This document shows, in pieces, positions 1 to 23,654 of a stretch of 64,000 nt of DNA. Location of the stretch: the NCBI GenBank assembly GCA_963717145.1, contig OY970325.1, forward strand, positions 672,001-736,000, read 5' to 3'. The notes beneath the pieces were generated by a model. The model was not told the DNA's origin and searched no databases. It worked only from the letters and a program-made list of their open reading frames with translations. Position 1 is the first letter of the stretch, and every line of letters starts with the position of its first letter. A program made the translations under genes and the position numbers. This DNA comes from an uncultured Armatimonadetes bacterium (GTDB lineage: Bacteria; Armatimonadota; UBA5829; DTJY01).

Positions 1-1845
1 TATCTCGCCGCGAACATCGGACGGCTCTCCAAGGAGACGCGCCTCTTCCGCGACACGTTCTTCGACAGCACGCTCCCATACTGGTTCACGCAGCGGATCG
101 GCGCGCCCGCCAGCACGCTCACCAGCCAGACGATGCTCTGGATCGAGGACGGCACGTTCCACGGCTTCGAGGGATCGGGTCACGGTGGATGCTGCCCGAT
201 GAACTGCACGCACGTCTACGACTACGAGATGGCGCTCGCATATCTCTTCCCCGACCTTGAGCGGAGTATGCGGCACACCGACCTGAAGGTCCAGCAGATG
301 GGCACCGGCGCGGTCCACCATCGAACCGTCCTCCCGCTCAACCTTCCCCGCGGCTCAGGGCCGTTCGTCGATGGGCAGCTCGGCACGATCCTCAAGAGCT
401 ACCGGGAGTACCGCATGTCCGCCGACCGGAAGTGGTTCGACGAGTTTTGGCCGAACATCAAGTTAGGGATGGATTTTGTCATCCGCGACTGGGATCCGAA
501 TGCGGACGGCGTGCTGGTGAACGAGCAATGGAACACCTACGACGCGGCGATGTACGGCCCGAACACGTTCATCGGCACGATGTACCTCGGCGCGCTTCGT
601 GCGTCGGAGGAGATGGCGAGAGTTGCCGGGGACGCCAGTTCCGCGACCCGATATCGCTCGATCTTCGAGACCGGCAGCAAGCGGCTCGACTCGGTGCTCT
701 GGAACGGCGAGTACTACATCCACATCGACACGAAGCCCACCGTTAAGGGGCTGGAGTCCAACTCCAGCCCCAACAGCAAGATAGCGTTGGGGTCGGAGTT
801 GGACTCCGACCCCTTGACGATGTGTGCAGCCGCGCCGGAGTTGGTCTCCTGTGCCAACTCTCAGTCCGCGGCCGGGTTGGGCGCGTGCTGCAGCGCGCCC
901 ACTGCTTCAGCGGTGCAGTTGATCGCCAACGCCGCCAGTAAGGCAGCGTCGGGGTCGGAGTTGCACTCCGACCCCGCCACCGAGGCGTGGATCGCCGAGG
1001 ACTGGCCGAAGGAGAATCCCGGCGCGAACCGACCCTACGGCATCGGCTGCCACTCCGACCAGCTCCTCGGCCAATGGTGGGCGAGCATCCTCGACCTCGG
1101 ATACCTCCTCCCGCAGGACCGCGTGCGGACGACGCTCGACTCGATCATGAAGTACAACTGGCGCTGGGACTTTGCGGACGTGCCCCAGCAGCGCATCTTC
1201 GCCCTGAAGAATGACAAGGGCCTGCTCAACTGCACGTGGCCCAGGGGTGGTCGGCCCGCGCAGATGACTCTCTACTCCGACGAGGCGTGGACCGGCATCG
1301 AGTATGAGGTCGCCGGCCTGCTGCTCTACGAGGGCAAGGTCACAGACGCGTACATGGTGGCCCGCGCGATCACCGACCGGTACAACGGCGTGCCGAATCC
1401 GCCGTTCAAGCGCAACCCGTGGAACGAGATCGAGTGCGGCGAGCACTATGCCCGCGCGATGAGCAGTTGGTCGATGTTGACCGGCGCACAGGGGTTCACC
1501 TATTGCGGCCCGGACGGCGCGATCGGCTTCGACCCTCGCATCAGCCCGGAGAACCACCGCTCGTTCTTCAGCGCGTCCGAGGGGTGGGGGACATTCGCAC
1601 AGAAGCGCACCGCCAGAGGCCAGACGGACACTCTCGAACTTGCTTACGGCAGGCTGACCCTGAACACTCTCGCATTCACCCTCAACCTGGCTGAGGCGCC
1701 CGCGAAGTGGCAGTACAGCGTGAAGATCGGCAGCCGGAGCGTCGGCAGCACCTGCAGACTGATCGACGGCAGGATGACGATCACCCTGAAGCAGCCCGTC
1801 TACCTCGGCGCCGGGCAGAAGCTCACGGTCGAGACGAAGTGGTAG
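1..1845 (+). CDS. GH116 (GBA2-like) glycoside hydrolase, 5'-truncated by the window; carries an in-frame palindromic insert at ~741-975
   Basis: Frame open from base 1 (YLAANIGRL...DSTLPYW); motifs GFEG, NCTHV, DGQLG, NTYD, LWNGEYY, SDQLLGQW, WTGIEY, NPWNEIECGEHYARAMSSW. Confidence 0.9.
   Translation, partial: YLAANIGRLSKETRLFRDTFFDSTLPYWFTQRIGAPASTLTSQTMLWIEDGTFHGFEGSGHGGCCPMNCTHVYDYEMALAYLFPDLERSMRHTDLKVQQMGTGAVHHRTVLPLNLPRGSGPFVDGQLGTILKSYREYRMSADRKWFDEFWPNIKLGMDFVIRDWDPNADGVLVNEQWNTYDAAMYGPNTFIGTMYLGALRASEEMARVAGDASSATRYRSIFETGSKRLDSVLWNGEYYIHIDTKPTVKGLESNSSPNSKIALGSELDSDPLTMCAAAPELVSCANSQSAAGLGACCSAPTASAVQLIANAASKAASGSELHSDPATEAWIAEDWPKENPGANRPYGIGCHSDQLLGQWWASILDLGYLLPQDRVRTTLDSIMKYNWRWDFADVPQQRIFALKNDKGLLNCTWPRGGRPAQMTLYSDEAWTGIEYEVAGLLLYEGKVTDAYMVARAITDRYNGVPNPPFKRNPWNEIECGEHYARAMSSWSMLTGAQGFTYCGPDGAIGFDPRISPENHRSFFSASEGWGTFAQKRTARGQTDTLELAYGRLTLNTLAFTLNLAEAPAKWQYSVKIGSRSVGSTCRLIDGRMTITLKQPVYLGAGQKLTVETKW
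741..975. repeat. Intragenic cluster of GGGG(TC/CT)GGAGT-nnn-ACTCC(GA/AG)CCCC hairpins (REP-like)
   Basis: Three hairpins at 747-771, 789-813 and 951-975; the first two also form a larger inverted pair (741-774 / 786-819). Confidence 0.85.
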
Positions 1846-21846: not shown

Positions 21847-22419
21847 ATGAACATCAAAGGAACACAGACCGAGAAGAACCTGCTCACCGCATTTGCCGGG
21901 GAGTCGCAGGCCCGCAACAGGTACTCTTTCTTTGCCAGCCAGGCAGCGAAGGATGGCTACGTGCAGATCGCCGCAATCTTCACCGAGACCGCCGACAACG
22001 AGAAGGAGCATGCCAAGCGCTTCTTCAGCTTCCTTGAGGGCGGCCCATGCGAGATCGTGGGTGTCTTCCCGGCCGGCAAGATCGGCACGACCGCGGAGAA
22101 CCTCCTCGCCGCGGCCGAAGGTGAGGCGGAGGAGTGGGGCAGCATCTACCCCGATTTCGCCAAGATCGCCCGCGACGAGAACCTCGCGGCCGTTGCCGTC
22201 GCTTTCGAGAAGATCGCGTCGGTCGAAAAGCATCACGAGGAGAGGTACCGCGCGCTGCTGAAGAACGTCGAGGACGCCAAGGTCTTCAAGAAGGATTCGA
22301 CGATGACCTGGAAGTGCAGGAACTGCGGCTACATCCATCAGGGCGCGGATGCCCCGTCGATGTGTCCGGCATGCATCCACCCGCAGGCGCACTTCGAGCT
22401 TCTGGCCGACAACTTTTGA
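21847..22419 (+). CDS. rbr: Rubrerythrin
   Basis: AFAGESQARNRY, EKEHA, EKHHE, WKCRNCGY, CPAC.HP. Confidence 0.97.
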   Translation: MNIKGTQTEKNLLTAFAGESQARNRYSFFASQAAKDGYVQIAAIFTETADNEKEHAKRFFSFLEGGPCEIVGVFPAGKIGTTAENLLAAAEGEAEEWGSIYPDFAKIARDENLAAVAVAFEKIASVEKHHEERYRALLKNVEDAKVFKKDSTMTWKCRNCGYIHQGADAPSMCPACIHPQAHFELLADNF

Positions 22420-22435
22420 GCCGATCAAGCACCCG

Positions 22436-22513
22436 GGCTGTCATTCTGAGCTTGGCGAAGAATCTGGCCTCCCAGGCCGGGCCAGATTCTTCGCCAAGCT
22501 CAGAATGACAGCC
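22436..22513. repeat. Perfect 34-bp-arm palindrome (GTCATTCTGAG...CGAAGAATCT family)
   Basis: Arms 22436-22469 and 22480-22513. Confidence 0.9.
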
Positions 22514-22565
22514 ACTGATTGTATGTGTTGGGGCGGGAGTTGCACTCCTGCTCCGGAGGAAACCC

Positions 22566-23654
22566 ATGAACTTCCGAGAGCGGACACTGGCGATCTTCGC
22601 CCACCAACCCGTCGACAACGTCGTCTATCAGCCGCGGATCGAGCACTGGTACGGCGTCAACAGGGCTCAAGGCACACTCCCCGAGCGCTACCGGGAGATG
22701 TCGCTGCTCGATGTCTATGATGACCTCGGATGCTCGATCCGAAGCTACCCCTGGTTCAACGGCTGCCTCGGATGCAAGGACGACCCGACCGTGAAGTATG
22801 AGGCCGAGCAGCATGGGAACAAGCACATTTCCCGCTGGACCTGCCCGGTAGGAAGCGTGGAGACGCACTCCAGTTCGACCGGCCTGGCGTCTCACACCGA
22901 CAAGTTCCCGGTCGAGACTCCGGACGACGCGCGGGTGATGGAGTACATCATGCGTGGTCGCACCTGGTTCTTCAACAAGGAACTCTACTCGCAGAACGAT
23001 GCGCTGATCGGTGACCGCGCCGCTCCGATGGCGTTCATCCCGCGCATCAACATGCAGCGCATGCTCATCGAGATCATGGGTGTCGAGGGGACGATCTACG
23101 CGCTCCACGACGACCGGGCGATGGTCGAGCATCTCATCGACGTGATCAACGAGACCGACGAGCAGATGCTCCAAGTCGTGCTCGACAGCCCTGTGCCGAT
23201 CATCAACTTCGGTGACAACGTGGACCACCACTTCCTTCCGCCGAACCTCTTCGAGCGCTATGTGCTGCCGGAATATCAGCGCCGTGCGGACCTCTTCCGC
23301 GCGCGCGGGAAGTTCACGCACGCCCATTGGGATGGCAGCATCAAGCTCCTGCTTCCGTATTGCCAACAGACTCGGCTCGACGGCATCGAGGCGCTGACCC
23401 CGATCCCGCAAGGCGACGTCACGCTCCAGGAGATGAAGGCGGCGCTGGGGGATATGGTGATGTTGGACGGCGTCCCGATGACGAGCTTCCTTCCGAGCGA
23501 ACCGCTGGAGGAACTGGAGCGGACGGCGCGCGACTGCATCGAGATGTTTTCGCCGAACTTGGTCCTGGGCGTCTCGGATGAGCCGTCGCCGGTGTGCGAC
23601 ATCGAGCGCGTCCGCCTTGTGGCGGAGATCCTCAAGGAGTATGAGCCGGCATGA
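22566..23654 (+). CDS. URO-D / MtaA-CmuA-like family protein
   Basis: FGDN, HWDG, GIEALTP.P.GD, LVLGVSDE. Confidence 0.75.
   Translation: MNFRERTLAIFAHQPVDNVVYQPRIEHWYGVNRAQGTLPERYREMSLLDVYDDLGCSIRSYPWFNGCLGCKDDPTVKYEAEQHGNKHISRWTCPVGSVETHSSSTGLASHTDKFPVETPDDARVMEYIMRGRTWFFNKELYSQNDALIGDRAAPMAFIPRINMQRMLIEIMGVEGTIYALHDDRAMVEHLIDVINETDEQMLQVVLDSPVPIINFGDNVDHHFLPPNLFERYVLPEYQRRADLFRARGKFTHAHWDGSIKLLLPYCQQTRLDGIEALTPIPQGDVTLQEMKAALGDMVMLDGVPMTSFLPSEPLEELERTARDCIEMFSPNLVLGVSDEPSPVCDIERVRLVAEILKEYEPA

What the first reader, a model, noticed from the sequence alone, without database searches (positions are those of the whole stretch)
741..975. A second repeat family adds ~78 aa in frame to GH116 and shows compensatory base changes
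Seen: hairpins GGGGCTGGAGT-cca-ACTCCAGCCCC, GGGGTCGGAGT-tgg-ACTCCGACCCC and GGGGTCGGAGT-tgc-ACTCCGACCCC. The CT/AG versus TC/GA swap is compensatory. A degenerate copy lies at ~837-849 and a related intergenic one at ~22533-22551. The peptide (GSELDSDP...GSELHSDP) interrupts the segment between LWNGEYY and YG.GC.SDQ. Inference: REP-like accretion inside a gene, with selection on hairpin structure rather than on the peptide.
Basis: partly seen in the sequence, partly recalled or inferred. Interest (0 to 1): 0.7.

Follow-up and report, generated by a model that had tools for sequence, protein, structure and literature searches.

The report
REP hairpins inserted inside GH116 gene
Copies of a small mobile DNA hairpin (a REP element, whose own transposase gene lies elsewhere in the genome) sit in frame in a loop of a sugar-cleaving enzyme gene and lengthen the protein by about 76 residues, which is a clear example of a behaviour already described for such repeats.

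Summary
Three perfect 25-nt palindromes lie at window 747-771, 789-813 and 951-975, with a decayed copy at 831-855 and an intergenic copy at 22530-22554. They bound an in-frame block of 228 nt (76 codons). Eight orthologues aligned from related genomes lack it, as do 52 of 53 metagenome loci.

The hairpin belongs to a genome-wide REP family: a YGTT tag, a variable 6-bp stem, and the core GGAGT-TGN-ACTCC. The core occurs 289 times against 4 in a control. The outer stem covaries across 41 stem types. One RAYT gene passes NCBIfam's REP-transposase cut-off and is flanked on both sides by these hairpins.

By an ORF-and-codon criterion of my own, 22 of 128 REP clusters lie inside open frames, including UvrC, Mfd and a DinG-like helicase.

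The nearest metagenome relative carries an unrelated palindrome at exactly the same codon position.

Intragenic REPs are already in print (PMC3733652), and this scan noted them before in this genome, at other loci. I class this as a new member of a known kind, of moderate interest.

The parts
1..1845 (+). C-terminal 614 codons of a GH116-family glycoside hydrolase gene. The whole open frame is genome 670408-673842 and carries a likely signal peptide.
   Evidence: Pfam DUF608/GH116 catalytic region scores 167.9 bits. The full frame was read. Orthologues are 77-81% identical. The best solved relative is 8ic6, E 5.9e-86.
742..987 (+). Lineage-specific segment of 82 codons with no counterpart in the nearest relative. 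The REP-bounded block within it is 748-975 (76 codons).
   Evidence: blastn against L066 breaks at window 741|988. MAFFT shows a 74-column gap in 8 orthologues. Search pieces cover 1-~250 and ~327-614 and are adjacent in the subjects.
747..774 (-). REP copy 1: a 25-nt perfect hairpin with outer stem GGGGCT and loop CCA (TGG on the tag strand), followed by AAC, which is the tag GTT on the minus strand.
786..813 (+). REP copy 2: GTT tag plus a 25-nt perfect hairpin with outer stem GGGGTC and loop TGG.
831..855 (+). Decayed REP copy. The core GGAGTTGGTCTCC has 1 mismatch, and 3 of 6 outer pairs remain Watson-Crick. It is in register with copies 1 and 2 (42-nt steps).
814..950 (+). Inner segment, unique in the genome and of unknown origin. 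It is Ala/Ser-rich when translated and includes the decayed copy.
   Evidence: blastn-short finds only the self hit. TRF finds no period.
948..975 (+). REP copy 3: decayed tag GTC plus a 25-nt perfect hairpin with outer stem GGGGTC and loop TGC. Together with 5 bases upstream it is a 31-nt direct repeat of copy 2 at 93.5% identity.
22527..22554 (+). Intergenic REP copy: GTT tag plus a hairpin with mismatches in the outer stem. It lies just upstream of a gene start at 22566.

Best explanation
Members of a REP/REPIN family of short mobile hairpins have inserted into the codons for a variable loop of a GH116 glycoside hydrolase. They are tolerated there as an in-frame extension of 76 residues.

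The unit is a 5' YGTT tag followed by an 11-bp stem and a 3-nt loop. The inner 5 bp (GGAGT/ACTCC) and the loop (TGN) are fixed. The outer 6 bp are free to vary as long as they pair.

The family most likely spreads as single-stranded DNA hairpins that are recognised and cut by the genome's single flanked RAYT, a Y1 HUH transposase at genome 4878206-4878748, outside the window. The spreading mechanism is inferred by analogy with studied RAYTs and with IS200/IS605.

Most units contain no stop codon in any of the six frames. Any insertion whose length is a multiple of three can therefore survive in a permissive loop. Such insertions are selected against in genes but not eliminated.

Shown here: the anatomy, the copy number, the covariation, the RAYT association, the absence of the insert from orthologues, and continued purifying selection on the gene. 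Inferred: the mechanism of mobility, the order of events inside the insert, and that the loop is translated and harmless.
For: (1) The core GGAGT-N3-ACTCC occurs 289 times in the genome against 4 in a first-order Markov control. In 192 copies all 6 next-outward pairs are Watson-Crick, and there are 41 distinct outer stems.

(2) Over all 289 unfiltered cores, outer positions 1-6 pair in 229-257 copies, against shuffled means of 77-197 that never reach the observed values. Pairing collapses at positions 7-9, to 53-100 of 289.

(3) In 221 oriented copies, GTT precedes the hairpin in 216-217. GTT plus an 11-bp stem plus a TG-loop gives 223 hits, against 0-1 for five control tag and loop combinations.

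(4) Of 128 clusters, 52 are inverted '+-' doublets, the REPIN layout.

(5) A 181-aa ORF matches NCBIfam NF047646 'REP-associated tyrosine transposase' at 96.2 bits (cut-off 80). It contains an HLH and a YIHDNP motif. Of the 8 Y1_Tnp-like loci, it is the only one with these hairpins within 5 kb, and it has them on both sides. It is single-copy. Homologous RAYTs in 7 of 9 relatives' loci examined are flanked by hairpins of their own.

(6) The insert is absent from the eight closest orthologues aligned from related genomes (74-column gap) and from five more distant GH116 genes. In 52 of 53 metagenome loci the match span is 603 nt or less, against 813 here.

(7) Branch-specific changes, polarised with 5 outgroups, are 21 nonsynonymous and 27 synonymous on this genome's branch, against 26 and 21 on the sister branch (777 codon columns). 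The gene has not relaxed.

(8) 174 of 227 REP units are stop-free in all six frames, against 1234 of 5000 random 31-mers.

(9) 22 of 128 clusters lie in spanning ORFs with a positive codon score on both sides, against 280 of 600 random intervals. Of the 19 such ORFs other than GH116, 16 have Pfam domains. The UvrC and GT4 inserts are absent from relatives' orthologues.

(10) In the solved homologue 8ic6 the matching stretch is a 9-residue connection: query 242 aligns to chain 622 and query 345 to chain 632.
Against: No experiment or expression data shows that the insert is translated, or that the enzyme still works.

Only three intact copies and one decayed copy (about 100 nt) are recognisable. 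The inner 137 nt matches nothing, so calling the whole block REP accretion is not shown.

The AlphaFold model was poor (mean pLDDT 61.7; insert below 50), so it says nothing about the loop's position.

REP copies are related by descent, so the covariation counts overstate the number of independent events.

The RAYT is below Pfam's Y1_Tnp cut-off (20.2 against 23 bits).

G006 has 32 copies of the REP pattern, but no homologue of this RAYT was found in its draft assembly at E<=1e-5.

The intragenic census rests on a codon score of my own making, not on a gene caller.
Confidence: 0.85

Rival explanations
1. The gene is dead. The insertion inactivated GH116 and the frame is still open only because REP sequence rarely contains stop codons.
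For: REP units are mostly stop-free in all frames. A 45%-identical paralogue exists at genome 2967228-2968907. There are no expression data.
Against: The 246-nt segment is open in only 1 of 6 frames, and that frame is the gene's own. Branch-specific nonsynonymous and synonymous counts (21 and 27) are no worse than on the sister branch (26 and 21), which is the pattern of purifying selection. Every column that is invariant across the 12 aligned orthologues is by definition also kept in this protein. Single-copy repair genes such as UvrC carry the same kind of insert.
Confidence: 0.08
2. The hairpins stay perfect because of how they are copied, for example one arm templating the other or wholesale replacement by new copies, and not because selection removes unpaired variants.
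For: 192 of 289 copies are perfectly paired over the outer stem. Most doublets carry identical stems, as expected from copy-and-paste of whole units.
Against: There are 41 different outer stems with the same core, and pairing stops exactly at position 6. Where pairs are imperfect, G.T or T.G on the tag strand outnumber A.C or C.A by 20 to 4 (copies are not independent). That asymmetry is expected if one folded strand is under constraint. The two readings are not exclusive.
Confidence: 0.25
3. The repeat is a protein-level motif (GSELxSDP) selected for what it does in the enzyme, and the DNA palindrome is a by-product.
For: All three intact copies in GH116 are read in the same phase. The copies are 42 nt, or 14 codons, apart.
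Against: The same DNA element occurs in other genes in all three phases and both orientations, giving unrelated peptides such as GDGVQLHP, GGRSTTPAP and GMELDSIP. 106 of the 128 clusters are not inside spanning ORFs at all. Orthologues lack the motif.
Confidence: 0.02
4. The loop is a preferred landing site: a pre-existing palindromic insert or a local DNA feature attracts further palindromic elements. On this reading the present block is a nest of successive insertions and not one event.
For: The nearest relative, L066, has flanks 90% and 86% identical. At the same boundary it holds a different 114-nt insert that folds as an almost uninterrupted long hairpin (-113 kcal/mol), from a family that is also abundant in this genome. 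The two inserts share no similarity. The three intact copies have two stem types and mixed orientation.
Against: There is only one relative with an insert. A permissive loop would give the same picture without any targeting. The inner 137 nt shows no trace of the other family.
Confidence: 0.3

Closest known systems
REP/REPIN elements with REP-associated tyrosine transposases (RAYTs), as in E. coli REP/BIME and Pseudomonas fluorescens REPINs (Bertels & Rainey 2011, PMC3116915: search listing and abstract only)
   Same: A short GC-rich hairpin repeat with hundreds of copies, mostly as inverted doublets. A single-copy Y1 HUH transposase gene is flanked by the repeat. Most clusters (106 of 128) lie outside spanning ORFs.
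   Different: The conserved 5' tag is YGTT, not GTAG. The outer half of the stem is free to vary, with 41 types. By the criterion used here, about one cluster in six is intragenic.
Intragenic GTAG- and CGTC-tagged REPs (Di Nocera, De Gregorio & Rocco 2013, PMC3733652; passages read)
   Same: REPs lie inside known genes, often as dimers or clusters, and many are in replication and repair genes. That paper reports clusters encoding 43 to 82 amino acids. Here the insert is 76 aa, and UvrC, Mfd and a DinG-like helicase are also hit.
   Different: The tag and stem architecture differ and the host lineage is another one. The CGTC families lack a dedicated transposase according to that paper, whereas this family has a flanked RAYT.
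Rickettsia palindromic elements (RPEs), as summarised in the MITE review PMC10969869 (passage read)
   Same: Palindromic repeats inserted in frame into unrelated genes, adding a peptide without destroying the host protein.
   Different: [quoted passage not shown] Here the unit is 28 nt, it is read in all phases, and a candidate transposase is at hand.
IS200/IS605 family (Y1 HUH transposases acting on single-stranded hairpin ends; recalled, plus the abstract of PMC6006769 seen)
   Same: The protein fold family (weak Pfam Y1_Tnp match) and the presumed recognition of ssDNA hairpins next to a short conserved tag.
   Different: The transposase is not carried inside the mobile unit. The repeats are non-autonomous and the gene is single-copy.

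Membership tests
REP/REPIN-RAYT system | Short imperfect or perfect palindrome present in high copy number | tested here: met
   289 cores against 4 in the control. 192 have a perfect 11-bp stem.
REP/REPIN-RAYT system | Copies commonly arranged as inverted doublets (REPINs) | tested here: met
   52 '+-' and 10 '-+' doublets among 128 clusters.
REP/REPIN-RAYT system | A RAYT gene flanked by the same repeats (REPtron) | tested here: met
   Hairpins lie on both sides of the ORF at genome 4878206-4878748. None of the 7 other Y1_Tnp-like loci has one within 5 kb.
REP/REPIN-RAYT system | The transposase belongs to the RAYT family, with an HUH motif and a catalytic Tyr | tested here: met
   NCBIfam NF047646 equivalog scores 96.2 bits against a cut-off of 80. 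HLH and YIHDNP are present in the sequence; reading these as the HUH and catalytic-Tyr motifs is from recall.
REP/REPIN-RAYT system | RAYT present as a single copy | tested here: met
   1 match in the own genome at E<=1e-5.
REP/REPIN-RAYT system | The RAYT binds and cleaves the REP hairpin, and the repeats are mobile | not testable with these tools
   Needs biochemistry or population sequencing.
GTAG-tagged REP super-family (Di Nocera 2013) | The tetranucleotide GTAG at one end of the palindrome | tested here: not met
   The position-by-position counts show YGTT (C 121, T 83; then G 217, T 216, T 217 of 221).
CGTC-tagged REP super-family (Di Nocera 2013) | A CGTC tag, stems of 8-9 bp, loops of 4-5 nt, and no dedicated transposase (as described in the passages) | tested here: not met
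   The tag is YGTT, the stem 11 bp and the loop 3 nt, and a flanked RAYT is present.
Rickettsia palindromic elements | [quoted passage not shown] | tested here: not met
   The unit is 28 nt, and it gives different peptides in the three phases.
GH116 glycoside hydrolase (host gene) | Match to the GH116 catalytic-region profile and to solved GH116 structures | tested here: met
   Pfam PF04685 scores 167.9 bits. 8ic6 gives E 5.9e-86 and 5bvu 2e-19. Catalytic residues were not mapped.

The most novel reading that the evidence does not exclude
The GH116 loop is not merely permissive but a recurrent landing site. Two unrelated palindromic repeat families have colonised exactly the same codon boundary in sister lineages, and the block seen here is a nest of successive hairpin insertions. 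That would imply hairpin-into-hairpin or structure-directed targeting by RAYT-type machinery. It would also make REP arrays a steady source of in-frame length variation, in 14-codon steps, in surface loops of enzymes and repair proteins of this lineage.
Probability: 0.2. Interest if true: 0.6.

Novelty: new member of a known kind. Interest (0 to 1): 0.4.

Why it matters
The locus shows plainly that a non-autonomous hairpin repeat can add dozens of residues to working proteins. The affected genes include single-copy DNA-repair genes, and the repeat's DNA or RNA structure, not the encoded peptide, is what is conserved.

The family has a clean architecture: a YGTT tag, a fixed inner stem and loop, and a free but always paired outer stem. 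It also has one flanked RAYT. That makes it a tidy system for asking what a RAYT reads in its substrate.

For annotation, the practical point is that odd low-complexity loops in this genome's proteins are repeat-derived.

Intragenic REPs are already in print (PMC3733652), and this scan had already noted them at other loci of this genome. The finding therefore extends a known phenomenon and does not open a new one.

Tried and rejected
- Tandem Repeats Finder on 650-1100 found nothing. The 42-nt register of copies 1-3 is therefore my reading of coordinates, not a scored array.
- blastn-short of the inner 814-950 against the genome gave only the self hit.
- Local alignment of this insert with the L066 insert scored no better than shuffles: 16-18 against a mean of 16-17.
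- The AlphaFold2 model of the 614-aa part with a 12-row alignment was poor (mean pLDDT 61.7, pTM 0.59, residues 242-351 below 50). I drew nothing from it and made no fold search.
- Orientation of singleton REPs against GC-skew replichores gave 26 '+' to 11 '-' in one arm and 5 to 7 in the other. The skew extremes (4.76 and 1.10 Mb) give very unequal arms, so this is inconclusive.
- Comparison of filled and empty sites between G006 and this genome could not define a target sequence, because the intergenic flanks have diverged.
- The look-up of sequencing runs listed no RNA holder, and no run held more than 0.19 of the words.
- Read laying on four coded metagenome runs at 85% likeness: two contigs in X2 and one in X3, about 89-90% alike, run from the gene into 747-775 or 747-810. 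Joints at 775>825 (7 letters between), 810>874 and 858>974 appear in X2 and X3. I take this only as a weak hint that relatives hold REPs at this site with different array lengths, because such joints often come from repeats or from other organisms.
- The genome-contig scan with the RAYT returned only homologues of 66% identity or less; none matched over most of the protein at more than 47%. Most were Bacteroidota, and no name for this genome's lineage emerged.
- Rfam gave only sub-threshold miRNA-precursor-like matches to the long hairpin at 739-822.
- No terminator-like site lies in the insert.
- A literature search for Armatimonadetes together with 'repetitive extragenic palindromic' returned 0 papers.
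- One search failed on a mistyped region reference and was not repeated. One search failed on a frame error and was corrected.
Full report
**What is there**

Window 1-1845 (+) is the 3' part of a long open frame (genome 670408-673842). The frame has a likely signal peptide and matches the GH116 catalytic-region profile at 167.9 bits.

The pattern is found 3 times in the window and never in 100 shuffles. A decayed copy lies at 831-855: its core has 1 mismatch and 3 of its 6 outer pairs are still Watson-Crick. An intergenic copy lies at 22530-22554, between a stop at 22419 and a start at 22566. All three intact copies are read in one phase, as G-x-E-[S/L]-x-S-x-P.

**It is an insertion**

I searched 41 genomes (the window's own and 40 relatives), and 33 have a GH116 match. 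In the best orthologues (77-81% identical) the query aligns in two pieces, about 1-250 and 327-614, and the pieces abut in the subject; the gap is 6 nt in G006 and 9 nt in G001.

MAFFT of 13 relatives' proteins shows a 74-column gap in the eight closest, and a still shorter loop in the other five. Among 53 metagenome loci the matched span is 603 nt or less in 52, against 813 nt here. The twelve loci I translated contain no GGAGT-N3-ACTCC core.

In the closest solved homologue (8ic6, E 5.9e-86), query residue 242 pairs with chain residue 622 and query 345 with chain 632. The equivalent stretch there is a 9-residue connection. The block bounded by the first and last hairpin is 748-975, or 76 codons.

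**It is a genome-wide REP family**

In the 5.37-Mb single-contig genome the core GGAGT-N3-ACTCC occurs 289 times, against 4 in a Markov control. The six positions outward are all Watson-Crick in 192 copies and 5 of 6 in 28 more, and there are 41 different outer stems.

Over all 289 unfiltered cores, outer positions 1-6 pair in 229-257 copies, whereas shuffled partners give means of 77-197 and never reach the observed values. At positions 7-9 pairing falls to 53-100 of 289. The stem is therefore exactly 11 bp, and its outer half covaries.

Oriented by the loop (TGN), 216-217 of 221 copies are preceded by GTT, usually YGTT. GTT plus an 11-bp stem plus a TG-loop gives 223 hits, against 0-1 for five control combinations. 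The tag is neither GTAG nor CGTC.

Of 128 clusters, 52 are inverted '+-' doublets, 10 are '-+' doublets, and 51 are singletons. The GH116 set reads '-', '+', (decayed '+'), '+'.

Copies 1 and 2 could also pair with each other into one long hairpin, which is the RNA minimum-free-energy fold (-158.4 kcal/mol, z -9.65). However, their stems differ (CT against TC). Each small hairpin is perfect while the long one is mismatched, so whatever keeps the pairing acts on the single unit.

Where outer pairs are imperfect, G.T or T.G on the tag strand outnumber A.C or C.A by 20 to 4. The copies are not independent, but this hints that the tag strand is the one that folds.

**The transposase**

Eight loci match Pfam Y1_Tnp. 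Only one has these hairpins within 5 kb, and it has arrays of them on both sides. Its 181-aa product is below Pfam's cut-off (20.2 against 23 bits). It nevertheless passes NCBIfam's equivalog model 'REP-associated tyrosine transposase' at 96.2 bits against a cut-off of 80, and it carries HLH and YIHDNP motifs.

The gene is single-copy here. Homologues of 43-54% identity occur in 18 of the 40 relatives searched. In 7 of the 9 homologue loci I inspected they are flanked by hairpins of their own; one (L050) has the same layout of an 11-bp stem and a TGN loop but another core.

The REP pattern itself is found 218 times in this genome, 32 times in G006, 5 in G007, 3 in G001 and once in G031. It is absent from the other 36 genomes searched.

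**Intragenic copies are common here**

Using stop-to-stop frames that extend at least 60 codons beyond a cluster on both sides, and a codon log-odds score trained on long ORFs, 22 of 128 clusters lie inside 20 open frames. The same criterion accepts 280 of 600 random intervals. That is depletion, not exclusion.

Of the 19 frames other than GH116, 16 have Pfam domains. They include UvrC, Mfd/TRCF, a DinG-like helicase, a PFL-like glycyl-radical enzyme (two doublets), an ABC ATPase, a GT4 glycosyltransferase (four copies), a sulfatase, GH2 enzymes, a melibiase-type enzyme, a DUF2961 protein and a Mu-type portal. The elements sit in all three phases and both orientations and give unrelated peptides.

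The UvrC insert (about residues 294-333) is unmatched in all 12 relatives, and where both halves matched (G001, G004, G006, G014) the flanking pieces abut or nearly abut. The GT4 insert is unmatched in its 83%-identical orthologue.

REP units are stop-free in all six frames in 174 of 227 cases, against 1234 of 5000 random 31-mers. This explains why they can be read through.

**Is the gene alive?**

The 246-nt lineage-specific segment is open only in the gene's own frame. I polarised changes with five outgroups over 777 codon columns. This genome's branch has 21 nonsynonymous and 27 synonymous changes, and the sister branch has 26 and 21. There is no sign of relaxed constraint. No expression data could be had.

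**The neighbour with another palindrome**

Metagenome locus L066 is the nearest relative, with flanks 90% and 86% identical in DNA. At the same boundary (window 741|988, L066 1794|1909) it carries a 114-nt insert that folds as an almost uninterrupted long hairpin (-113 kcal/mol). Its arms belong to a GGGGAGGG-TTGGGGAGGGG-type family that is also abundant in this genome. The two inserts share no similarity.

Either the loop is simply permissive, or it is a preferred landing site. One relative cannot decide this.

**What remains unexplained**

The inner 137 nt (814-950) is unique in the genome. Apart from the decayed copy it shows no REP signature.

Copies 2 and 3 are direct repeats. They share 5 upstream bases, and over that 31-nt stretch they are 93.5% identical. 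The only other GGGGTC stems in the genome lie in the sulfatase gene.

**Comparison with what is known**

Di Nocera et al. 2013 (PMC3733652; passages read) describe REPs inside genes of several species. Many are in replication and repair genes, and some clusters encode 43-82 residues. A 2024 review (PMC10969869; passage read) summarises in-frame Rickettsia palindromic elements.

This locus works like those. By its flanked RAYT it is a member of the REP/RAYT kind, but it belongs to neither the GTAG nor the CGTC super-family.

Earlier notes of this scan, which call the genome Armatimonadota (I did not verify this), had already reported in-frame REPs in its DinG-like helicase, iorA and hemA genes. 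My census independently recovered the DinG case.

**Verdict**

This is a new member of a known kind, and its interest is moderate.

Noticed in passing
window 22441-22511: A long perfect palindrome (arms of about 30 nt starting GTCATTCTGAGC) lies between the stop at 22419 and the REP at 22530. It belongs to a different repeat family. The same GTCATTCTGAGC motif sits next to a REPIN in G006 (L058).
   Followed up: no
genome 607431-608405 (L030): One open frame joins an RNase H-like domain (aa 24-148) to a UPF0047 domain (aa 212-324) through a REP doublet at aa 159-181. This may be a REP-bridged gene fusion, or a read-through of two genes.
   Followed up: no
genome 4045018-4047826 (L041, L042): Two overlapping open frames on the same strand together look like one GH2 beta-mannosidase-type gene. 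Each carries a REP doublet, so this may be a frameshifted gene.
   Followed up: no
genome 3599220-3599248 and L065:2001-2185: A Mu-type portal gene has a REP at the same site in this genome and in G006, which belongs to another genus. G006 has one further copy there. The intragenic REP is therefore either old or recurrent.
   Followed up: partly
genome about 3975830-3975990: At the locus where G006 has a GGAGT-core REPIN, this genome has a doublet with the same GTT tag and TGC loop but with the core GGATT/AATCC. This is a both-sided change in the otherwise fixed inner stem, and only 3 such copies exist genome-wide.
   Followed up: partly
genome-wide, e.g. hits to L058:1152-1332, L062:3956-4005, L064:4075-4119: The genome holds several other abundant repeat families: one of about 180 nt with roughly 40 or more copies, and two of about 45-50 nt with dozens of copies each.
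   Followed up: no
whole genome: Cumulative GC skew has its minimum at 4.76 Mb and its maximum at 1.10 Mb. The two arms are therefore about 1.7 and 3.7 Mb, which is unusually unequal for a closed chromosome.
   Followed up: no
window 1-1845: The closest solved homologue is an exo-beta-D-arabinofuranosidase or arabinanase (8ic6, E 5.9e-86), far ahead of the GH116 beta-glucosidases (about 2e-19). The enzyme's substrate may therefore not be a glucoside.
   Followed up: no
genome 1279732-1282380 (L032): A PFL-like glycyl-radical enzyme carries two separate REP doublets with the rare GGTTCT stem. One of them lies inside the PFL-like domain.
   Followed up: no
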